From IMG/VR virus record IMGVR_UViG_3300045988_056976: a DNA stretch of 34,360 nt; one strand, given 5' to 3'. This document shows positions 8,837 to 25,239 of the stretch, piece by piece. The position numbers were made by a program, and so were the translations under genes. The notes beneath the pieces are model-generated. The model did not search any database. It was given only the letters and a program-made list of their open reading frames with translations, and was not told the DNA's origin. How positions within the stretch are numbered: the stretch's first letter is position 1; each line of letters starts with the position of its first letter. Source of the DNA: a virus.

Positions 8837-9191
8837 TAAACGAAATGTGCCCGAATCGGGCACCGACAGGACACCCCTGTGGGCGCAGCGAATCATCGCG
8901 GCGCATCTCGCCGTGACCGACGCCGTCAGCCACGGCGGGCGCATCCAGTCTGACCGCTACCTTGTCTGGCAAGAAGACGGCGCGAACGACTTCGAGGCCG
9001 GTGGCATCCACGCGGAAAAGGCGGTTACAGGCTCCACAGATCTGTTCACGAAGCAGGAGTTTGACCCCTGGCGGGATGAGCTGGAAGCCGCCTTTGACGC
9101 GGCGGAGATCGTCTGGAGCTTGAACAGCTGCCAGTTCGAGGAGGAGACCGGCTTCTGGCACTACGAGTGGGACTGGGAGGTGTTTGCCTGA
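8829..9191 (+). CDS. structural-module protein of unknown function (120 aa)
   Basis: ATG at 8829 (alternative 8817), coupled to neighbours on both sides. Contains palindrome copy 2 in frame, read as VPESGT. Confidence 0.5.
   Translation: MSSKRNVPESGTDRTPLWAQRIIAAHLAVTDAVSHGGRIQSDRYLVWQEDGANDFEAGGIHAEKAVTGSTDLFTKQEFDPWRDELEAAFDAAEIVWSLNSCQFEEETGFWHYEWDWEVFA
8847..8863. repeat. 17-bp palindrome GTGCCCGAATCGGGCAC, copy 2
   Basis: Exact match, inside ORF 8829..9191. Confidence 0.9.
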
Positions 9192-9676
9192 TGGCTACGT
9201 TCCAGTTCGGCGGCATCGACAACTACATCAAACAGCTGAACAAGCTGCAGCAGTCCACCAAGGATGGCGTGGTGGGTAAGACGGTCTATGCCGGTGCGGC
9301 GGTCGTGGCGGATTCGGTGCGGCGTGCGATAGAGGCTTTGCCTGTGGGCGACGGACGCGCCCGGGACGGCGGTTTGGTTGACACCGTCACCTTGCCGCAG
9401 AAGGCGGGGCTTCTGGACGGCTTTGGCATCAGTCGCTTGAAGGACGATAACGGGTTTATCAACGTCAAGGTTGGCTTTGATGGGTACAACTCCACCCGGA
9501 CGGAGAAGTACCCACGAGGGCAGCCTAACGCACTGATTGCCAGAGCAGTCAATAGCGGCACCACCTTCCGCAAAAAGACGAAGTTTGTGGACAAGGCGGT
9601 GAACTCCGCCAAGAAGGCGGCGGAAGCGGCAATGGACGCGGCGTGCAGCCGCGAAATTGAAAAAATCATGAAATAG
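9191..9676 (+). CDS. tail completion protein (HK97 gp10-like)
   Basis: ATG at 9191 overlaps the previous stop (TGATG). 161 aa, just before the major tail gene. Confidence 0.65.
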   Translation: MATFQFGGIDNYIKQLNKLQQSTKDGVVGKTVYAGAAVVADSVRRAIEALPVGDGRARDGGLVDTVTLPQKAGLLDGFGISRLKDDNGFINVKVGFDGYNSTRTEKYPRGQPNALIARAVNSGTTFRKKTKFVDKAVNSAKKAAEAAMDAACSREIEKIMK

Positions 9677-19829: not shown

Positions 19830-19833
19830 GGAG

Positions 19834-19874
19834 AAAGATGCACCGAAACGGTGCATCTTTTTTATTCTTTTTTT
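19834..19874 (+). terminator. intrinsic terminator after the lysis genes
   Basis: A 12-bp stem AAAGATGCACCG / CGGTGCATCTTT with a 3-nt loop, followed by a T-rich run. Confidence 0.85.
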
Positions 19875-19884
19875 GAAAAAAGGC

Positions 19885-19913
19885 TTGACAAACCACGCAA
19901 TGCGTGGTAATAT
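19885..19913 (+). promoter_or_regulatory. sigma70-type promoter P1 with a palindromic operator in the spacer
   Basis: TTGACA (19885..19890), 17-nt spacer, TAATAT (19908..19913). The spacer holds the perfect palindrome CCACGCAATGCGTGG (19893..19907). Confidence 0.75.
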
Positions 19914-19988
19914 ATAAGCAGATCAAGAGAGTGAAAGCCGCACAGCGGCAGAGCTGACATGAGAATTATTTAACAGGAGGAACATAAC

Positions 19989-20525
19989 ATGAACGCACAG
20001 GAATTGATTTTGCGGTACAGAATCGCCCTTCAAATCGACGGACACGGCCAGCCCACCGGAAATCTGGTTGTGTACCGCGCCGACAAAGCGGCTCTTGCTG
20101 CTATCAAAGCCGCAAAGCCAGAAATCGTGTCCATGCTGCTGGAGCAGCGCGAAGCCGGTATCCGCGCAGAGCAGGAGCGGCAGAAGAAAATCGCCGCCAT
20201 CCCCGGCCTGCGGGAGATCGAAGCCGCCCGTGCCGATCTGGTAAATTGGAAACTGGAATTTGACGCCAGTTTTGACAGCGAGAACGGCGGCGGCGTGGGC
20301 GTCCGCCCCAAACCGAAGTATGACATGGACGCCATGTACGCCCAGTACCCCCGCGCCAAGGCGTATTTGGACGCGCAGGCGTTCGCGGCATCCGAAAACG
20401 TCGCAAAATCCGCAGCCGGAATAAAAGCGATGGAGTGCATCATCAACGGCGAAAACCATGAACAGGCCATCGACACTATGAACAGCGAGTGGGCGACACA
20501 CTGCGAATCCCACCTTTGGGACTGA
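19989..20525 (+). CDS. hypothetical protein (178 aa), accessory cassette 1
   Basis: AGGAGG RBS. No recognisable domain. Confidence 0.65.
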   Translation: MNAQELILRYRIALQIDGHGQPTGNLVVYRADKAALAAIKAAKPEIVSMLLEQREAGIRAEQERQKKIAAIPGLREIEAARADLVNWKLEFDASFDSENGGGVGVRPKPKYDMDAMYAQYPRAKAYLDAQAFAASENVAKSAAGIKAMECIINGENHEQAIDTMNSEWATHCESHLWD

Positions 20526-20537
20526 AGAGGAGTTGCC

Positions 20538-20861
20538 ATGAAAAACATTGAGATCAAGACCTACGGCAGAAAAATCAACAAGGAGACATTGGCCAACGCC
20601 TCCAACTCCACCAAGGGACTTGGCTCCCGCACGGGGGAGTACATGGAGATTTTTTACGACAAGTCTACCGGCGATGTCTGGTGCAAGTACCACTGGGACC
20701 GCGAGGAATGGACGGTCTACCACGACGATGACGTCACGAAGGTCGGTATTGCGGTACGATACAAGACCCAGCAGCAGATCGCGGACATGATCGCGGCAAC
20801 CCTGACGATGGAAGAACGCTGGGAGCGCGAGAACGCCGCATATCTGGCGGGAGGAACATGA
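20538..20861 (+). CDS. hypothetical protein (107 aa), accessory cassette 1
   Basis: GAGGAG RBS. No recognisable domain. Confidence 0.65.
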   Translation: MKNIEIKTYGRKINKETLANASNSTKGLGSRTGEYMEIFYDKSTGDVWCKYHWDREEWTVYHDDDVTKVGIAVRYKTQQQIADMIAATLTMEERWERENAAYLAGGT

Positions 20862-20873
20862 TCATGATGGTGC

Positions 20874-20902
20874 TTGACATTTCCTGCGCAGCGTGGTAAA
20901 CT
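20874..20902 (+). promoter_or_regulatory. candidate promoter P3
   Basis: TTGACA (20874..20879), 17-nt spacer, TAAACT (20897..20902). The spacer keeps only the right half (GCGTGG) of the P1/P2 operator. Confidence 0.45.
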
Positions 20903-20908
20903 GTTTCT

Positions 20909-21040
20909 GTCGGATGCAAGAGGCGCTTGCATCTGGTGCGGCGCGATCCTGCCGCCGTGGATTGAAAAGGTAAGAAGGACAAACACTTCAAACGCAGGAA
21001 AAGCACCGACAGATTGTCGGTGCTTTTCCTTTTTATTTTT
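20909..21040 (+). ncRNA. candidate ~130-nt structured small RNA or 3' UTR element
   Basis: Lies between P3 and a strong terminator. Contains the 8-bp hairpin GATGCAAG-aggcg-CTTGCATC (20913..20933) and the GC hairpin GCGGC...GCCGC. No ORF with an RBS is present. Confidence 0.3.
20997..21040 (+). terminator. intrinsic terminator ending cassette 1
   Basis: A 14-bp stem GGAAAAGCACCGAC / GTCGGTGCTTTTCC followed by TTTTTATTTTT. Confidence 0.85.
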
Positions 21041-21050
21041 GGAAAAAGGC

Positions 21051-21079
21051 TTGACAAACCACGCATTGCGTGGTAATAT
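21051..21079 (+). promoter_or_regulatory. sigma70-type promoter P2, a duplicate of P1 with the same operator
   Basis: TTGACA (21051..21056), 17-nt spacer, TAATAT (21074..21079). Palindrome CCACGCATTGCGTGG at 21059..21073. Block 21041..21120 is about 90% identical to 19875..19952. Confidence 0.75.
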
Positions 21080-21135
21080 ATAGACAGATCAAGAGAGTGA
21101 CAGCCGCTCCCAGCGGCAGAAAAGGAGAACAAACA

Positions 21136-21462
21136 ATGAATAACATTAAGGTAAACGTATATGAGAATAACGCCGGCGGGATCGCCTGCATCGTGCGCGA
21201 GGGTGACAAGATCTCTAACGTAGTCTTGAACTGCGAGATGTGGGAAGATAGCCCCGAGGAAATCAAGTCCGCATTGATGGCTGGTCTGCCCTACTGCAGA
21301 GACTACGACCCGGATAGCTGCTGCGGAGTAAGCATGGACGAGATCGCCTCCGAGATCGAGTGCAACCATGAGTGGATCGCGACCGTCACGTCGGAGGGCG
21401 TGGAAACTTACCCCGACTGCATGGGGCTCGCTGGGTGCAGAATGTTTGGCGAGCGTCGCTGA
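21136..21462 (+). CDS. hypothetical Cys-rich protein (108 aa), accessory cassette 2
   Basis: ATG at 21136 follows AAGGAG. No recognisable domain. Confidence 0.65.
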   Translation: MNNIKVNVYENNAGGIACIVREGDKISNVVLNCEMWEDSPEEIKSALMAGLPYCRDYDPDSCCGVSMDEIASEIECNHEWIATVTSEGVETYPDCMGLAGCRMFGERR

Positions 21463-21490
21463 CCCCGGCAGGCAAGGAAAGGAGAAAATC

Positions 21491-21871
21491 GTGAAAAAGA
21501 TTGAGCACAAAGTCATCCGCACCACCGGATATATCGCCGACAAGCTGTTCCACGGCTTGTGGGTCGAGGCTATCGCCTCCGTAGACCGGGACGCATTCAT
21601 CTCCGACTGGTCTCTGTCCTTCGTCTGGGATGACGCCCCAGACGCGGGCATCCCCGCAGACCGCATCGATGCGCTGACACGGCTTTGGGACGCCGCCCAC
21701 CTAACGATACGCGACATCCGCGCCCATACGGGACTTTCGCAGGCAGCCTTTGCCACCCGCTACTGTATCCCCACACGCACGGTGGAGGACTGGGAGCGTG
21801 GTGTCCGCACTTGTCCCGACTATCTGCGCCTGCTGCTGGCAGAGAGCGCAGGTCTGTATAAACGACCATGA
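21491..21871 (+). CDS. protein with a C-terminal XRE-type helix-turn-helix (126 aa), accessory cassette 2
   Basis: GTG at 21491 follows GGAAAGGAG. The C-terminus (IRDIRAHTGLSQAAFATRYCIPTRTVEDWERGVRTCPDYLRLLL) is a typical HTH followed by the WE-G-R-P motif. Confidence 0.65.
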   Translation: MKKIEHKVIRTTGYIADKLFHGLWVEAIASVDRDAFISDWSLSFVWDDAPDAGIPADRIDALTRLWDAAHLTIRDIRAHTGLSQAAFATRYCIPTRTVEDWERGVRTCPDYLRLLLAESAGLYKRP

Positions 21872-22056
21872 TCCGCAAGTGCGTCATCTGCGGTACCGAG
21901 TTCCGGACATCTCCATCCAACAACAAGCACACCTGCCCTACTGATCACCCGCGTCGATGGCGCAGCAAGCAGCACACCGGCGTGCCCAATCCGTTGTCAT
22001 TCCGTTGTCATTATGCGTCTCTTGATGCCTATTTATTGTCCGGATTCTCGTACTAA
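21868..22056 (+). CDS. small zinc-ribbon-like ORF, possibly truncated at the att region
   Basis: MIRKCVICGTEFRTSPSNNKHTCP... begins like small zinc-ribbon phage proteins. Its C-terminal tail is encoded by the 11-bp att-arm repeats. Confidence 0.45.
   Translation: MIRKCVICGTEFRTSPSNNKHTCPTDHPRRWRSKQHTGVPNPLSFRCHYASLDAYLLSGFSY
21991..22012. repeat. tandem 11-bp direct repeat CCGTTGTCATT x2 (candidate integrase arm-type sites)
   Basis: Exact tandem copies at 21991..22001 and 22002..22012. The GTTGTCA core recurs at 22223 and 22234. Confidence 0.6.
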
Positions 22057-22107: not shown

Positions 22108-22147
22108 GAAACCGCCTGATTGTTGCAATCAGGCGGTTTCTGGTTTT
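22108..22147. terminator. bidirectional intrinsic terminator
   Basis: A 15-bp stem GAAACCGCCTGATTG / CAATCAGGCGGTTTC, T-rich on both sides. Confidence 0.7.
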
Positions 22148-22174
22148 GGAGCAGGGTACGGGAGTCGAACCCGT
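22147..22174 (-). other. 3' fragment of a tRNA gene (T-arm, acceptor 3' strand, CCA); candidate attP core
   Basis: The reverse complement reads ACGGG-TTCGACT-CCCGT-ACCCTGC-T-CCA, that is T stem, canonical T loop, acceptor 3' strand, discriminator U and CCA. No matching 5' half (GCAGGGT) lies downstream; the integrase stop is there instead. Confidence 0.65.
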
Positions 22175-22197: not shown

Positions 22198-23355
22198 TCA
22201 ACACTCATTTTTTTGAACTGTCGTTGTCATTTTGTTGTCAAAATAGTCGTCGATGGATCTGTCGATCTCTATCATTCTGTCGGTCATCGTGTAGGCGTAA
22301 ACCTGCTTATACATCCAGTCATCGGACCAGCCGTTGCGCTCCTGCGCATACCTCGACTCCACGCCGAGCCGCACCATGATGGCGGCGTTGGCGTGGCGCA
22401 GATCGTGGAAGCGGCAGCGAGGAATGCCGGCGGCATCGAGTCCGCGGATGAAGCGATTATAGATCGTCTGGCCAGAGATGGGGATGATGTAGCCCTCGCT
22501 GCGGCCGGTGGCGTCTATCAGCGTCTGAATGTGGACGGGGACGGATACCCAGCGATCGCCGGAGAAGGTCTTTGGCGGCTTCACCTCGTCGCCGTTTTCT
22601 CCGGAGACAATGGCGCGACAGATGTGCAGCCTACCCCCAGAGATGTCCTCGAATCTGGCACCGCGGATCTCCGACATACGCATCCCCATCCACAATGCCA
22701 TAAGTACGGGCAGCTCCATGTCTGTGCCGGAGAATGCCGCGATGATCTTGCCGATCTCGTTGTCCTCGATCTTGCGCAGCTCCACCTTCCGCTTCTGCGG
22801 GAGGATGACGGAGATCCTTGAATCTGGCGCGAACTGTTTCAGGACGGAGACGAGAAGCCCTTCAACGTTCCGGATATACTTGGGGCTTTTCCCGTTTTTC
22901 ACCATCTTCCCGATCTCCCGCTGGATCTGCTCGGAGGTGATGGAGGAAGCCGACAGCTCCATCAGGCTCTGGAAGGATGTCTTCTGGAGACGCTTGTACT
23001 CCGCCGCGGTGGAGGGCGAGATCACCCCGTCTCGCGATTCGATATATTTCCGGTACGCCTCCTTCAGCGTCATAGTCGAGACGGCCTTGTCGGGTGCCTT
23101 CAGGCCGTGCTTGATGGCGGACGCCTCCGCCACCGCCTCCGCCTTTGTGGGGCGCGTGATGGACACGTCTCGCCCATCCACGCGGACGCGGCACGTCCAC
23201 GACCCGCTGGGCAGCTGCCGCGCTGTAGGTGCGTCGCTCCTGGTACGCTTCTCCCGCACCTGCCGGGTGCCGCACCACTTGCAGTAGACGCTGTCGCCGT
23301 CTATCTCACGACCGCAGCCTTTGTTCTTGCAGATCACACTACCACCCCTTTGCAT
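22198..23355 (-). CDS. int: tyrosine recombinase / phage integrase with an N-terminal zinc ribbon
   Basis: CKNKGCG...CKWCG at the N-terminus. Catalytic signature RMSEIRG ... FHDLRHANA ... VYAYT. A GTG at 23337 after AAGGGGTGG is a possible alternative start. Confidence 0.9.
   Translation of the reverse strand: MQRGGSVICKNKGCGREIDGDSVYCKWCGTRQVREKRTRSDAPTARQLPSGSWTCRVRVDGRDVSITRPTKAEAVAEASAIKHGLKAPDKAVSTMTLKEAYRKYIESRDGVISPSTAAEYKRLQKTSFQSLMELSASSITSEQIQREIGKMVKNGKSPKYIRNVEGLLVSVLKQFAPDSRISVILPQKRKVELRKIEDNEIGKIIAAFSGTDMELPVLMALWMGMRMSEIRGARFEDISGGRLHICRAIVSGENGDEVKPPKTFSGDRWVSVPVHIQTLIDATGRSEGYIIPISGQTIYNRFIRGLDAAGIPRCRFHDLRHANAAIMVRLGVESRYAQERNGWSDDWMYKQVYAYTMTDRMIEIDRSIDDYFDNKMTTTVQKNEC
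22221..22242. repeat. second pair of GTTGTCA repeats (TCGTTGTCATT TTGTTGTCAAA), candidate arm-type sites
   Basis: Read in the sequence with the same 11-bp phasing as 21991..22012. Lies within the integrase 3' coding end. Confidence 0.5.
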
Positions 23356-23391: not shown

Positions 23392-23835
23392 TTATCCGAC
23401 CTTCTCCATGCGGATGGTCATAGTGGAACCGAGGGCACTGGCTTCGTAGCTCAGCTGACCGTCGGCATAGGTGAACGTCTTGGCGTCATCACCGCTGGCA
23501 AGAAGTGCGAGGGAGGTCTGCTCCTTGTCGTTCTGAGAATCCCATGAATACGGTTCGTCCGCCGTGGTGGGGGCAACGAATGTCCCTGCCCAGTACAGGC
23601 TCTTAGTGTCGCCATTGTCGGAAACCCAGTTTACGACAATTTCGCTGCCGGAGATCGTGGCGGCCTGCCAAGCGTCCTCAGAGTTGCTGTTGACTTGTTT
23701 CCACTCGCCGGTCAGGTCGGGAGGAGATGCAGGCTCTTTAGTCTGCTCGCCGCCACTGTTGGCGGGTGTGTTGCCGCAGGCACAGATGGACAGTACCATA
23801 ACGGCGACCATCAGGAACACAGTAATTTTCTTCAT
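23392..23835 (-). CDS. putative lipoprotein (147 aa)
   Basis: Signal peptide MKKITVFLMVAVMVLSICACGN with a lipobox-like Cys. Low-complexity linker followed by a beta-rich domain. Confidence 0.75.
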   Translation of the reverse strand: MKKITVFLMVAVMVLSICACGNTPANSGGEQTKEPASPPDLTGEWKQVNSNSEDAWQAATISGSEIVVNWVSDNGDTKSLYWAGTFVAPTTADEPYSWDSQNDKEQTSLALLASGDDAKTFTYADGQLSYEASALGSTMTIRMEKVG

Positions 23836-24098: not shown

Positions 24099-24749
24099 TT
24101 ATCCTCCGCACACCTTGCAGGCGCGCCGTCCGCTGGCTATGGCGTCGCTGATGCTCATGGGGTACTTGGAGCCCTTCAGCGGCCTGCAATACTCGCTATG
24201 ATAACATTCTCCCGTTTCGCCCACGTAGACAGTGCGCTCCTGCGGCTCCGTCTGGGCAGGAGGTTCGACGTAAACAGGCTCGTTCCCCTCCGCCACCGGC
24301 TCTGACACAGGCTCCTGCCATGTCTTTGGTTCCGTCTCCGGCGTTTCCTCCACGGGATCCACCGCGTCCGGCTCGGGTGCCGAGGTCGCCTCGTCCTCCT
24401 GCGTCGTGGGCGCGGACTTGCTCACATCCACATCCAGCTTGTCGGTAGGCGTGAACTGAGCAGAGACATTCTGCTGCGGCGATCCGCTTACGGTGTTGTC
24501 CGCCACATCCGTTGACGGAGTGACCAGCGCACTGGCGATGAATACCGCCACAACAAGACCGATCCGCCACCCCGCCTTCACGTGCAACTTCTCCCGCAGG
24601 AATGCCCCCAGTGCGGGGATAGGCGCGGCAAGGATTGCCGTGGCGAAAAGTAATCCGCTGCCCACAGAGGGGAACTGTTCCAGCCCCAGCATGACGCAGC
24701 CCACCACAAACAGCCATTGCAGCACCAGCAAAACAACTTTCTTTTTCAT
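24099..24749 (-). CDS. multi-pass membrane protein with an acidic Pro/Glu-rich linker and a C-terminal Cys/His-rich domain
   Basis: Start MKKKVV at 24749 follows GGGGGTG. Three hydrophobic helices. C-terminus YVGETGECYHSEYCRPLKGSKYPMSISDAIASGRRACKVCGG. Co-oriented directly downstream of the XRE repressor. Confidence 0.7.
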   Translation of the reverse strand: MKKKVVLLVLQWLFVVGCVMLGLEQFPSVGSGLLFATAILAAPIPALGAFLREKLHVKAGWRIGLVVAVFIASALVTPSTDVADNTVSGSPQQNVSAQFTPTDKLDVDVSKSAPTTQEDEATSAPEPDAVDPVEETPETEPKTWQEPVSEPVAEGNEPVYVEPPAQTEPQERTVYVGETGECYHSEYCRPLKGSKYPMSISDAIASGRRACKVCGG

Positions 24750-24785
24750 AGTCACCCCCATCGTGCCCATCCGGGCACTCTTTTT

Positions 24786-25136: not shown

Positions 25137-25199
25137 ATATTACGAAAATTAGGTAATTACCCAAAAACGCTTGACAATGAGTAATTACTCATTTATGCT
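25137..25199. promoter_or_regulatory. genetic switch 1: divergent promoters with GTAATTAC-core palindromic operators
   Basis: Rightward promoter: TTGACA (25171..25176), 17 nt, TATGCT (25194..25199), with the perfect 16-bp palindrome ATGAGTAATTACTCAT (25177..25192) in the spacer. A second palindrome GGTAATTACC (25152..25161) overlaps a weaker leftward -35 (ACCCAA on plus, with -10 at 25137..25142). Confidence 0.6.
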
Positions 25200-25239
25200 T
25201 AACTTGTCCCTCAGGTACGAGCGAGAGGGAGGTGAGAAG

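What the first reader, a model, noticed from the sequence alone, without database searches (positions are those of the whole stretch)
19875..22056. Twin operator-controlled promoter cassettes between endolysin and attP: acr-aca-like anti-defence (or defence) locus of unknown genes
Two ~80-bp blocks (19875..19952 and 21041..21120, about 90% identical by eye) each hold a near-consensus promoter (TTGACA, 17 nt, TAATAT). The spacer of each is filled by a perfect 15-bp palindrome, CCACGCA(A/T)TGCGTGG, which differs only at the central base. A conserved 5' UTR hairpin (GCCGC...GCGGC) follows.

Each block comes after a strong intrinsic terminator and drives unknown-function ORFs:
- Cassette 1 holds the 178-aa and 107-aa ORFs.
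- Cassette 2 holds the 108-aa Cys-rich ORF, a 126-aa protein with a C-terminal HTH, and a small zinc-ribbon ORF.

A strong promoter with an embedded inverted repeat, small unknown ORFs and a terminal HTH gene is the layout of anti-CRISPR/aca operons, where Aca represses the acr promoter through inverted repeats. The position next to the lysin at the prophage end is also a known hotspot for anti-defence and lysogenic-conversion genes. None of the four non-HTH proteins has a motif I can recognise.
Basis: partly seen in the sequence, partly recalled or inferred. Interest (0 to 1): 0.8.

Follow-up and report, generated by a model that had tools for sequence, protein, structure and literature searches.

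The report
Self-repressed accessory gene cassettes, gut phage
Two near-identical promoter-plus-operator switches at the end of a gut-bacterial virus drive small genes of unknown function. They are very probably shut off by the DNA-binding protein encoded in the second cassette, which is the layout viruses use for genes that disarm bacterial immunity, although no such activity has been shown here.

Summary
Two 85-nt blocks (88% identical) each hold TTGACA-17-TAATAT with a perfect 17-bp palindrome in the spacer, then a 5'UTR hairpin, and each follows a strong terminator.

The block is the portable front end of a mobile accessory module found in over 100 human-gut phage contigs. The module is promoter/operator, leader hairpin, one to four fast-changing small cytoplasmic orphan proteins, then a two-domain XRE helix-turn-helix gene (ORF D, 21491-21871).

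D is very likely the operator-binding autorepressor. In 96 non-redundant promoter/HTH pairs, a recognition-helix Asp goes with inner operator bases GC..GC (45/47). Asn never does (0/48).

Having two full copies is rare. It arose when a P-(F02 deleted)-A-B cassette recombined into a P-C-D phage through the shared block. One D gene should therefore control both operons.

No cargo protein matches any known anti-CRISPR, anti-defence, defence or toxin family by sequence. A and B also match none by predicted fold. The anti-defence reading stays plausible but unproven.

- A third, degenerate promoter (20874-20902) drives a conserved ~125-nt structured RNA.
- The "zinc-ribbon ORF" is a truncated remnant.

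Verdict: a new candidate Aca-like module, of moderate interest.

The parts
19831..19863 (+). Intrinsic terminator that ends the lysis operon, just upstream of block 1
   Evidence: 15-pair stem followed by a T run. The same terminator precedes the single block of relative L005.
19885..19913 (+). Promoter P1 (TTGACA, 17 nt, TAATAT, with TG extended -10)
   Evidence: Scores 10/12. It is conserved in 59 of 64 related loci.
19892..19908 (.). Operator O1, the perfect 17-bp palindrome ACCACGCAATGCGTGGT, filling the -35/-10 spacer
   Evidence: locate it. Its inner bases covary with the HTH recognition helix.
19937..19949 (+). 5'UTR hairpin GCCGC-ACA-GCGGC of cassette 1
   Evidence: Predicted by folding. 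A hairpin sits at the same place in nearly all relatives, and some have different stems: L153, L024, L058.
19989..20525 (+). ORF A (178 aa, cargo family F04), mostly helical, function unknown
   Evidence: 667 representative homologues. The AF2 model has pLDDT 96. There is no PDB fold match and no Pfam, PHROG or PADLOC hit.
20538..20861 (+). ORF B (107 aa, cargo family F01), the commonest cargo of the module, function unknown
   Evidence: Present in 45 of 59 loci. It has 124 homologue clusters, all at least 67% identical. The AF2 model has pLDDT 88 and no PDB fold match.
20874..20902 (+). Promoter P3, a degenerate paralogue of the block (TTGACA, 17 nt, TAAACT). It keeps only the right operator half-site (GCGTGGT).
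   Evidence: (family D2). It is conserved in 30 or more distinct loci.
20909..21034 (+). Conserved ~125-nt structured RNA (three hairpins plus terminator 20996-21030). It also serves as the terminator of cassette 1.
   Evidence: MFE -56.1 kcal/mol, z -5.9. 96% of cells are paired against about 47% when the partners are slid, and 11 pairs show compensatory change. There is no Rfam family. It lies within 300 nt upstream of the HTH gene in 34 of 41 contexts and stands alone in 5.
21051..21079 (+). Promoter P2, identical in its hexamers to P1
   Evidence: It is nearly identical to the single block of L005/L006.
21058..21074 (.). Operator O2, ACCACGCATTGCGTGGT
21103..21117 (+). 5'UTR hairpin GCCGCU-CCC-AGCGGC of cassette 2
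   Evidence: L005 has the same variant.
21136..21462 (+). ORF C (108 aa, cargo family F10), acidic (pI 4.2), 8 Cys, function unknown
   Evidence: Only 6 homologue clusters among 5.8 billion proteins. No family hit. pI.
21491..21871 (+). ORF D (126 aa), a two-domain XRE-type HTH protein and the inferred operator-binding autorepressor of both cassettes
   Evidence: HTH_3 at 26.2 bits against a cut-off of 23. phrog_25567 at 1e-13, function unknown. 259 homologues. It co-occurs with the operator, and its helix covaries with the operator.
21868..22056 (+). ORF E (62 aa), a truncated remnant of a ~170-aa Zn-ribbon protein. Its 3' half overlaps repeats next to attP.
   Evidence: 45% identity over its first 44 residues to the 171-aa protein that follows the HTH gene in L044.
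22108..22140 (.). 15-pair hairpin between cassette 2 and the integrase gene, probably a two-way terminator
   Evidence: (I3).
22147..22173 (-). attP core, identical to the 3' end of tRNA-Gly(CCC)
   Evidence: In integrated copy L146 the same bases form the 3' end of the tRNA and the sequences diverge right after them.

Best explanation
**What it is.** The two blocks are two copies of the portable front end (promoter, operator, leader hairpin) of a mobile accessory-gene module carried by temperate phages of human-gut Clostridia.

**How it works.**
- ORF D, the last intact gene of cassette 2, is a dimeric XRE-type helix-turn-helix protein.
- D binds the 17-bp palindrome ACCAC-NN-NNN-NN-GTGGT that fills the -35/-10 spacer, and so blocks RNA polymerase.
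- Both operons carry the same operator, so the single D gene represses its own operon in cis and the A-B operon in trans.
- The expected result is a burst of expression when naive DNA enters a cell or is induced, then a low feedback-held level.

**The cargo.** The cargo genes are A, B and C here, and at least ten interchangeable families in relatives. They encode small soluble cytoplasmic proteins that most likely act on host immunity or on competing mobile elements. In other words this is an acr-aca-like anti-defence island.

**Origin of the twin layout.** It arose by homologous recombination through the shared block.

**Shown versus inferred.**
- Shown: the sequence anatomy, conservation of the module, cargo turnover, and covariation between operator and recognition helix.
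- Inferred: binding, repression, timing of expression, and cargo function.

**Sub-confidences.** D is the cognate operator-binding autoregulator of both promoters: about 0.85. The cargo is anti-defence: about 0.4.
For: **Anatomy.**

**The block and the HTH gene travel together.**
- 59 of 64 related loci have the block 155-1490 bp upstream of a D homologue on the same strand. The five exceptions are two loci with too little upstream DNA and three distant homologues.
- An HTH-blind pattern scan found 64 D-like genes downstream of 91 sites that had enough DNA. The remainder are mostly non-palindromic chance hits.

**Specificity covaries.**
- Asp in the E-D-W motif of the recognition helix goes with inner operator GC..GC in 45 of 47 pairs.
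- Asn goes with GC..GC in 0 of 48 pairs (CA..TG, CC..GA, CG..CG, TC..GA and others); Fisher p 4e-25, uncorrected for phylogeny.
- Divergent lineages L087 and L106 (52-61% identity) keep Asp and GC..GC.
- Changes affect both half-sites symmetrically, as expected for a dimer.

**Another regulator is unlikely.** The phage's CI/Cro-type operators are a different palindrome, AATGAGTAATTACTCATT at 25176-25193. No other copy of the cassette operator exists in the window.

**The cargo turns over behind a constant block and HTH.** Families F01, F02, F04, F06, F07, F10, F11 and singletons.

**Cargo properties.** All cargo proteins lack membrane segments, and five families have pI 4.0-4.4.

**Neighbourhood.** In 35 of 59 loci the module sits within about 4 kb of ParB-N6/N4 methylase, Dam, C5 methylase or PAPS-reductase genes, a typical anti-restriction neighbourhood (PMC13551039).

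**Recombinant origin.** The P1 leader is the block joined to the 3' end of the F02 gene. P2 and its upstream terminator match the P-C-D phage L005.

**Precedent.**
- Aca repressors bind inverted repeats in acr promoters (PMC6765145, PMC9410881).
- Aca1 and Aca2 also bind 5'UTR hairpins, and Aca proteins are predicted or shown to control neighbouring operons (PMC13551039).
Against: - No binding, repression or phenotype data exist.
- None of the cargo families matches a known Acr, anti-defence, defence or toxin family by sequence. The confident A and B models also match no solved structure. C and the cargo of relatives were not modelled.
- D is not detectably a member of Aca1, Aca2 or Aca10. Its nearest solved relatives are Atu1735 and the antitoxin HigA2.
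- The helix/operator association rests on a few clades, so the p-value overstates independence.
- The 5'UTR hairpin stem does not change when operator and helix change, so there is no sign that D reads it.
- In most relatives a terminator and a separate promoter (P3) lie between cargo and HTH gene. This is not the simple single-operon acr-aca layout.
- The position at the prophage end, next to attP, is equally typical of lysogenic-conversion genes.
Confidence: 0.6

Rival explanations
1. These are lysogenic-conversion or defence 'morons'. On this reading the cassettes are autonomous transcription units expressed from the resident prophage for the benefit of the lysogen, for example by excluding other phages or altering host physiology. 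D merely sets their level.
For: - Each cassette has its own promoter and terminator, and is present or absent among close relatives.
- In this phage the locus is at the prophage end next to attP/tRNA-Gly and points outward. That is the classical place for conversion genes in siphophages of Firmicutes (my own knowledge; moron definition in PMC3594210).
- Feedback repression gives a steady low level, which suits lysogeny.
Against: - There are no PADLOC hits for A, B, C or E.
- All cargo proteins are small, soluble and cytoplasmic, several are very acidic, and none has a signal peptide or membrane segment. This is unlike most exclusion or conversion factors.
- In most relatives the module is not at the prophage end but among orphan methylase and PAPS-reductase genes.
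- A dedicated repressor sitting on a near-consensus promoter is the acr-aca signature.
Confidence: 0.25
2. This is a toxin-antitoxin or abortive-infection module. D would be a HigA2/MqsA-like antitoxin that represses the operon, and the gene upstream of it would be a toxin.
For: - D's HTH is nearest to HigA2 (E 0.005) and weakly matches the MqsA family (E 5.5e-4, far below its cut-off).
- Gene order with the toxin first, and palindromes in the promoter, are typical of higBA and mqsRA (my own knowledge).
Against: - The gene before D changes (B, C, F07, F11, a 114-aa protein, or none), while D's N-terminal domain stays the same. A toxin-specific neutralising domain would not behave this way.
- No cargo protein matches any toxin family.
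- In most loci a terminator and an RNA gene separate cargo from D.
- Cassette 1 has no antitoxin of its own.
Confidence: 0.05
3. The cassettes serve the phage's own development, for example anti-repressors, excision or lysis-lysogeny accessory factors. D would be a developmental regulator rather than a housekeeper of accessory genes.
For: - The locus sits next to the integrase gene and attP, and no excisionase was identified in the region.
- B is present in 45 of 59 loci and is therefore fairly constant.
- A-family proteins occur in early and replication regions of unrelated phages.
Against: - Close relatives lack A, or B, or C altogether and still look like complete phages.
- The module moves between unrelated genome positions.
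- There is no operator copy elsewhere in the genome that would tie D to the lysis-lysogeny switch.
Confidence: 0.1
4. The palindrome is read by something other than D (the phage CI/Cro pair or a host factor), or it is only a structural element of a duplicated promoter.
For: - There is no direct binding evidence for D.
- The main immunity promoter uses the same design, a palindrome in the spacer.
Against: - The CI-type operators have an unrelated sequence.
- The operator is found with D-like genes across phages whose other genes differ.
- Its inner bases track one residue of D's recognition helix.
Confidence: 0.05

Closest known systems
acr-aca operons repressed by Aca1, Aca2 or Aca10, including Aca control of neighbouring operons and 5'UTR RNA motifs (PMC6765145, PMC9410881, PMC9410906, PMC13551039)
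   Same: - A strong promoter has an inverted repeat overlapping the -35/-10 region.
- Variable small orphan genes come first and the HTH regulator gene comes last.
- A conserved hairpin lies in the 5'UTR shortly before the first start codon.
- The same DNA motif sits in front of a second adjacent operon that lacks its own regulator.
- Some loci have an auxiliary upstream copy of the motif (L153).
   Different: - No cargo gene is a known or homologous Acr.
- The HTH is a new two-domain family, with an N-terminal domain of about 70 aa that has no relatives, and it is not detectably Aca1-14.
- A single palindrome lies wholly inside the spacer.
- In most loci a terminator, a separate promoter and a ~125-nt structured RNA lie between cargo and regulator.
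- The hosts are gut Clostridia, where very few Acrs are known.
Listeria phage acrIIA loci autorepressed by AcrIIA1 (bioRxiv 10.1101/787200)
   Same: - It belongs to temperate phages of Firmicutes.
- A conserved palindrome lies in the acr promoter.
- The regulator has two domains (HTH plus a second domain).
- The partner genes are variable.
   Different: - AcrIIA1 has its HTH at the N terminus and an anti-Cas9 C-terminal domain, whereas D has its HTH at the C terminus.
- There is no sequence similarity. AcrIIA1 is absent from D's PDB matches at E up to 10.
- No function is known for D's other domain.
Phage morons (independent transcription units added between conserved phage genes; PMC3594210)
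   Same: - Each cassette has its own promoter and its own terminator.
- Cassettes are present or absent among close relatives.
- They spread horizontally between phage lineages.
   Different: - Morons are defined by layout, not by mechanism.
- Here the units share one dedicated repressor/operator pair and a conserved leader.
- Expression from the prophage has not been shown.
HigA2 / MqsA-type HTH antitoxins of type II toxin-antitoxin systems
   Same: - They are the closest solved relatives of D's HTH domain (HigA2 E 0.005).
- The HTH is C-terminal and follows a non-HTH N-terminal part.
- They autoregulate through palindromes in the promoter.
   Different: - The upstream partner is not constant and matches no toxin family.
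- The N-terminal domain does not vary with the partner.
- Scores are far below the family cut-offs (MqsA 19.7 bits against 61.8).

Membership tests
acr-aca operon (Aca-regulated anti-CRISPR locus) | A regulator gene (HTH or RHH) is encoded with, and downstream of, small variable genes | tested here: met
   D is the last intact gene of cassette 2. The same holds in 59 related loci with changing cargo.
acr-aca operon (Aca-regulated anti-CRISPR locus) | An inverted-repeat DNA motif overlaps the operon promoter | tested here: met
   A perfect 17-bp palindrome lies in the -35/-10 spacer of P1 and P2 and is conserved in relatives.
acr-aca operon (Aca-regulated anti-CRISPR locus) | The regulator binds that motif and represses the promoter | tested here: inconclusive
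   Only comparative evidence is available: co-occurrence, and covariation of helix and operator (45/47 against 0/48). No binding or reporter assay is possible with these tools.
acr-aca operon (Aca-regulated anti-CRISPR locus) | At least one co-encoded gene is an anti-CRISPR, validated or homologous to one | tested here: not met
   - A, B, C and E and eight cargo families of relatives have no functional hit in Pfam or PHROGs. A, B, C and E also have none in NCBIfam or PADLOC.
- The A family profile has no PDB sequence hit.
- The A and B models have no PDB fold match.
- A dedicated Acr/anti-defence HMM set (dbAPIS, AcrFinder) was not available.
acr-aca operon (Aca-regulated anti-CRISPR locus) | The regulator belongs to a described Aca family (Aca1-Aca14) | tested here: not met
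   The profile of 20 D homologues against all PDB sequences gives Aca10 (7XI5) only at E 0.11. Aca1 and Aca2 do not appear at E up to 10. Families without solved structures could not be tested.
acr-aca operon (Aca-regulated anti-CRISPR locus) | A structured RNA motif in the 5'UTR is bound by the regulator (shown for Aca1 and Aca2) | tested here: inconclusive
   A hairpin is present and its position is conserved, with different stems in L153, L024 and L058. It does not covary with the helix/operator class, and binding is untestable here.
Phage moron | An independent transcription unit with its own promoter and terminator, between conserved phage genes | tested here: met
   P1 runs to terminator 20996-21030 and P2 runs to hairpin 22108-22140. 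Both lie between the lysin terminator and attP.
Phage moron | Present or absent among otherwise related phages, with horizontal spread | tested here: met
   The four closest relatives differ in cargo. The same module occurs in two unrelated genome neighbourhoods.
Phage moron | Expressed from the repressed prophage | not testable with these tools
   No transcript data are available.
Type II toxin-antitoxin system (HigBA / MqsRA type) | The antitoxin scores as a member of the HigA or MqsA family | tested here: not met
   MqsA family 19.7 bits against a cut-off of 61.8. HigA2 is matched over the HTH only, E 0.005.
Type II toxin-antitoxin system (HigBA / MqsRA type) | A cognate toxin gene is constantly paired with the antitoxin | tested here: not met
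   The gene before D varies among at least five unrelated families or is replaced by an RNA gene. None of them matches a toxin family.
Known anti-phage defence systems (PADLOC-DB) | A protein matches a defence-system model | tested here: not met
   No hits for A, B, C or E. D matches only a generic HTH model at E 0.0025.
XRE-family helix-turn-helix regulators (Pfam HTH_3) | The score exceeds the Pfam gathering threshold | tested here: met
   D residues 73-116 score 26.2 bits against a cut-off of 23.

The most novel reading that the evidence does not exclude
The locus may be a three-layer control system for a hypervariable anti-defence island of gut Clostridia phages.
- Layer one is a new two-domain Aca-type repressor with a readable specificity code (Asp or Asn against the inner operator bases). 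It may be bifunctional, like AcrIIA1, through its orphan N-terminal domain.
- Layer two is a conserved leader hairpin.
- Layer three is a dedicated ~125-nt phage RNA with its own promoter, which gates or accompanies the repressor gene. No such layer is known in acr loci.

On this reading the conserved block doubles as a homology patch through which cargo is swapped between unrelated phages. A (667 representative relatives), B and C would then be new inhibitors of host immunity.
Probability: 0.2. Interest if true: 0.75.

Novelty: new member of a known kind. Interest (0 to 1): 0.5.

Why it matters
Very few anti-defence genes are known for phages of the dominant human-gut Clostridia. Regulator-guided 'guilt by association' is the main route by which such genes have been found elsewhere.

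This module offers three things:
- **A search handle.** The handle is a new HTH family plus a simple operator motif, TTGACA-N-ACCAC-N7-GTGGT-A. It already points to at least ten orphan protein families. One of them (A) has hundreds of relatives and a confident predicted fold with no match among solved structures.
- **A cheap test of specificity.** The match between one recognition-helix residue and the inner operator bases is a directly testable code.
- **A possible extra layer of control.** The associated structured RNA is a candidate for one.

If the cargo turns out not to be anti-defence, the locus is still a clean example of how a shared regulatory block lets phages shuffle accessory cassettes.

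Tried and rejected
**Family searches.** A, B, C and E were scanned against Pfam, PHROGs, NCBIfam and PADLOC, and eight cargo families of relatives against Pfam and PHROGs. Nothing functional came up. The only hits are Zn-ribbon stretches of F07 and the full-length E homologue against part of a PHROG annotated as HNH endonuclease.

**Structure.** AF2 models of B (pLDDT 88) and A (pLDDT 96) were searched with Foldseek against the PDB. The best E values were 0.35 and 1.5. Against BFVD, A found only one uncharacterised relative.

**A family.** A profile of the A family against PDB sequences, and Pfam scans of longer A-family proteins in search of informative fusions, gave nothing.

**Rfam.** No family matched the window, the locus at E up to 1, or three relatives. 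The weak MicC and AgrB hits lie on the wrong strand over the terminator.

**Host genomes.** The genome-contig scan with D found only one distant locus, in an Oribacterium MAG. The host is therefore known only from the flank of an integrated copy.

**CI as the operator reader.** Rejected, because the immunity operators are a different palindrome.

**Toxin-antitoxin reading.** Rejected, because D's N-domain is constant while its upstream partner changes.

**Lysin/attP position as a defining feature.** Rejected, because only about 12 of 59 loci share it.

**A second operator-like site in L059.** It is an unrelated promoter of the immunity region.

**Composition.** There is no compositional anomaly across the cassettes.

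**Targets of the RNA.** A duplex scan of its unpaired stretch against the window gave one candidate, 9166-9220 at -34 kcal/mol. I did not pursue it and draw no conclusion.

Full report

Yes.
- The repeat finder returns one 85-nt direct repeat, 19857-19941 and 21023-21107, at 88% identity.
- Each copy holds TTGACA, a 17-nt spacer and TAATAT preceded by TG, scoring 10 of 12 (19885-19913 and 21051-21079).
- Inside each spacer is a perfect palindrome of 17 bp, ACCACGCA[A/T]TGCGTGGT. The window has exactly two copies against 0.13 expected, and no shuffle reached two. Relaxing to three mismatches adds only one weak site at 9257.
- Strong terminator hairpins (15 and 16 pairs, followed by T runs) end at 19863 and 21030, just before the blocks.
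- Both predicted leaders fold into a short GC hairpin, at 19937-19949 and 21103-21117.

The window is a temperate phage genome.
- The upstream gene is an amidase-type endolysin (PHROG endolysin 3e-9), preceded by a holin.
- The downstream gene is a tyrosine integrase on the other strand.
- A contig with the integrated form shows that bases 22147-22173 are the 3' end of tRNA-Gly(CCC), so this is attP.

**2.

- A third, degenerate copy of the promoter lies at 20874-20902 (TTGACA, 17 nt, TAAACT). It keeps only the right half of the operator.
- That promoter is followed by a ~125-nt structured RNA ending in the 20996-21030 terminator. Details are in section 8.
- ORF E is not an intact zinc ribbon. 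Its first 44 residues align at 45% identity with the start of a 171-aa protein that follows the HTH gene in relative L044. The rest is missing, and its 3' half runs into CGTTGTCAT repeats that flank attP.

**3. The block belongs to a conserved module with changing cargo**

The nearest relatives show the pattern first. Two faecal phage records and two IMG/VR contigs each have one block and one D homologue, but different genes in between.

Sixty more loci found with D give the same picture.
- The block lies 155-1490 bp upstream of the HTH gene in 59 of 64 loci. The exceptions are two truncated loci and three distant homologues.
- Clustering the intervening ORFs gives these families:
  - F01 (= B), 45 loci.
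  - F02 (68 aa), 37 loci.
  - F04 (= A), 13 loci.
  - F06, 9 loci.
  - F07 (multi-CxxC), 7 loci.
  - F10 (= C), 3 loci.
  - F11, 3 loci.
  - Several singletons.
- From the -35 box to the Shine-Dalgarno sequence the block stays the same, whatever gene comes first.

**4. Who reads the palindrome?**

The comparative evidence points to D.

- **Operator variants.** D homologues of lower identity have variant operators. The outer ACCAC/GTGGT is kept, and the two inner positions of both half-sites change together, for example ACCACCCAATGGGTGGT and ACCACCGAATCGGTGGT.
- **HTH-blind scan.** Scanning IMG/VR for TTGACA-N-ACCAC-N7-GTGGTA without reference to the HTH gave at least 120 stretches. Of the 91 sites with enough downstream DNA, 64 had a D-like gene within 3.5 kb on the same strand. 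Most of the rest were non-palindromic chance matches.
- **Covariation.** Over 96 non-redundant promoter/HTH pairs, proteins with Asp in the E-D-W motif of the recognition helix (IPTRTLEDWERG type) have inner bases GC..GC in 45 of 47 cases.
  - Proteins with Asn (IPxRTxENWESG type) never do, 0 of 48. They have CA..TG (23), CC..GA (10), CG..CG (3), TC..GA (3) and others.
  - The Fisher p-value is 4e-25. It is not corrected for shared ancestry and rests on a few clades.
  - Two divergent lineages (52-61% identity) that keep Asp also keep GC..GC.
  - A 45%-identical homologue in an Oribacterium MAG has yet another palindrome in the same promoter position, and a second copy in its leader.
- **Not CI.** The phage's own CI/Cro-type switch uses a different palindrome in the spacer of its promoter, AATGAGTAATTACTCATT at 25176-25193. 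CI is therefore unlikely to read the cassette operator.

I take D as the cognate, dimeric operator-binding protein with about 0.85 confidence. Repression rather than activation is inferred from the site filling the spacer of a near-consensus promoter.

**5. Why two copies here?**

- The P2 block, with its unusual hairpin loop, and the lysin terminator before P1 are nearly identical to those of L005/L006. Those phages have the simple layout lysin, terminator, P, C, D.
- The P1 leader is a hybrid. It is L005-like up to the hairpin, then the last 10 bases of the F02 gene, then the F02-A spacer.
- The window phage is therefore an L005-like backbone into which a P-(F02 deleted)-A-B-P3-RNA cassette was recombined through the shared block.
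- The twin layout is found unchanged in contigs from at least five samples, both free and integrated. Otherwise it is rare: only L051 has a comparable second full block directly before the HTH gene.
- Functionally, cassette 1 has no regulator of its own and should be controlled in trans by D from cassette 2.

**6. What are the proteins?**

*ORF D*
- It passes the Pfam HTH_3 threshold and belongs to a PHROG of unknown function.
- Its HTH is nearest to Atu1735 (E 1e-4), the antitoxin HigA2 (5e-3) and, weakly, Aca10 (7XI5; 0.11).
- Its N-terminal ~70 residues carry the motif DRDAF[VI]SDW[SA]LSSVWGD. They are conserved whatever the cargo and have no detectable relatives.

*ORF A*
- It belongs to a large family with 667 representative clusters.
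- The family is found in many gut phages, often next to a D-like HTH.
- Its model is very confident (pLDDT 96) but matches nothing in the PDB.

*ORF B*
- It has a narrow family of 124 clusters.
- Its model is confident (pLDDT 88) but has no fold match.

*ORF C*
- It has six relatives among 5.8 billion proteins.

*Cargo as a whole*
- None of these, and none of eight cargo families from relatives, hits a functional family, a defence model or a toxin.
- All lack membrane segments, and five families have pI 4.0-4.4.

**7. Context in relatives**

- Only about 12 of 59 loci sit between a recognisable lysin and integrase.
- In 35 of 59 loci the module lies within about 4 kb of a ParB_N-N6/N4 DNA methylase, Dam, C5 methylase or PAPS-reductase gene.
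- Those are the orphan modification genes that mark anti-restriction hotspots (PMC13551039).
- This is guilt by association, not proof.

**8. The RNA**

- The sequence from P3 to the terminator folds at -56.1 kcal/mol, z -5.9.
- Across 15 diverse copies a four-helix structure pairs 96% of cells, against about 47% for slid controls. Eleven pairs show compensatory change. Most of that change traces to one divergent, free-standing variant.
- Single-sided changes are mostly A-U to G-U, which fits transcription of the + strand.
- Hairpin 2 keeps its loop, CGAUCC, while its stem is replaced.
- The element lies within 300 nt upstream of the HTH gene in 34 of 41 distinct contexts. In five it stands alone, with its own promoter and terminator and no HTH gene. 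In the window it is separated from D by P2 and C.
- No Rfam family matches.
- It may be a leader or attenuator that meters D, a 3'UTR-type small RNA, or both. I could not decide.

**9. Mechanism and rivals**

The best-supported reading is an Aca-like, self-repressed accessory module.
- The literature on acr-aca loci describes all of its regulatory features: inverted repeats in the promoter (PMC6765145, PMC9410881), 5'UTR hairpins bound by Aca1 and Aca2, and one Aca serving several adjacent operons (PMC13551039).
- Listeria AcrIIA1 shows that such regulators can have two domains and two functions (10.1101/787200).

Whether the cargo is anti-defence is open, at about 0.4.
- The main rival is a prophage-expressed moron or defence locus (0.25).
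- A toxin-antitoxin reading is unlikely, because the partner gene changes while D's N-domain does not (0.05).
- A role in phage development cannot be excluded (0.1).

**10. Membership and novelty**

- The locus works like an acr-aca system but cannot be filed as one. No Acr is present by homology, and the HTH is not a described Aca.
- It meets the layout definition of morons (PMC3594210).
- I rate it a new member of a known kind: a new candidate regulator family with new candidate cargo.
- It has one unusual addition, the RNA, that could raise its novelty if shown to be functional.
- Interest is 0.5. It is a useful, testable lead for anti-defence discovery in gut Clostridia phages, not a surprise in principle.

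Noticed in passing
window 20874-21034: A degenerate third copy of the promoter drives a conserved ~125-nt four-helix RNA with its own terminator. No Rfam family matches. In relatives it usually sits directly before the HTH gene.
   Followed up: yes
L278, L279, L281, L290, L299 (e.g. L281 1345-1500): A free-standing variant of the same RNA has its own TTGACA promoter and terminator, and no HTH gene downstream. The hairpin-2 stem is replaced but its loop CGAUCC is kept, which argues for an independent small RNA gene.
   Followed up: partly
window 25153-25203: The main immunity promoter (TTGACA, 17 nt, TATGCT at 25171-25199) also carries a perfect palindrome in its spacer, AATGAGTAATTACTCATT (25176-25193). 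A related half-site lies at 25153-25163. The design is the same as the cassette promoters but the sequence is different.
   Followed up: partly
window 21981-22010 and 22222-22240: CGTTGTCAT(T) direct repeats lie on both sides of the attP core. They are probably arm-type integrase binding sites, and the left pair lies inside the ORF E remnant.
   Followed up: no
L146 6381-12381: This is an integrated copy of the same phage. The cassettes point outward into tRNA-Gly(CCC). Host genes follow: a PBP5-type carboxypeptidase, PGI, SpoVAC, HemN-like radical SAM and Ile-tRNA synthetase. The host is therefore a spore-forming member of the Clostridia.
   Followed up: yes
window 23392-23835 (-) and 24099-24770 (-): A lipoprotein-like gene and a membrane protein with a Cys-rich C terminus lie between the integrase and the CI-like repressor. 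The membrane protein weakly hits PADLOC PD-T4-6 (E 7e-4). These are candidates for lysogen-expressed exclusion or conversion genes.
   Followed up: no
L032 1398-2798, 6617-8214; L021 1246-2475, 7295-7966; L013 6773-8335: In another phage lineage the same module lies between a divergent ParB_N-N6/N4 methylase gene and a block holding PAPS reductase, Dam and C5 methylase genes.
   Followed up: partly
L099 3476-4537; L117 3965-5197; L087 1617-2525; L153 318-1846: Distant relatives of protein A (35-53% identity) in unrelated gut phages are again next to a D-like HTH. Depending on the locus, that HTH is a 78-aa stand-alone protein, the C terminus of a 220-aa protein, or a full D homologue.
   Followed up: partly
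L001 about 2620-2800; L049 and L019 upstream of the block; L281 1510-1610: A conserved ~90-nt sequence ending ...GGGGCACCTATGCCGCATA lies upstream of the promoter block in many loci and downstream of the free-standing RNA. It has no Rfam match and its nature is unknown.
   Followed up: no
L153 170-260: An auxiliary second copy of the operator (CACCACTAAATTGGTGGA) lies about 40 bp upstream of the promoter-embedded ACCACTAATTTAGTGGT. This resembles the extra upstream Aca1 site described in the literature.
   Followed up: no
window 9166-9220: This is the best complement in the window to the unpaired conserved stretch of the P3 RNA (-34 kcal/mol, about 5 sd below the mean). It overlaps the start of ORF 9167-9676. 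Its significance is unknown.
   Followed up: no
window 22198-23355 (-): The integrase has an N-terminal CxxC...CxxC zinc-ribbon extension, with weak DUF7575 and DZR hits, ahead of the SAM-like and catalytic domains.
   Followed up: no
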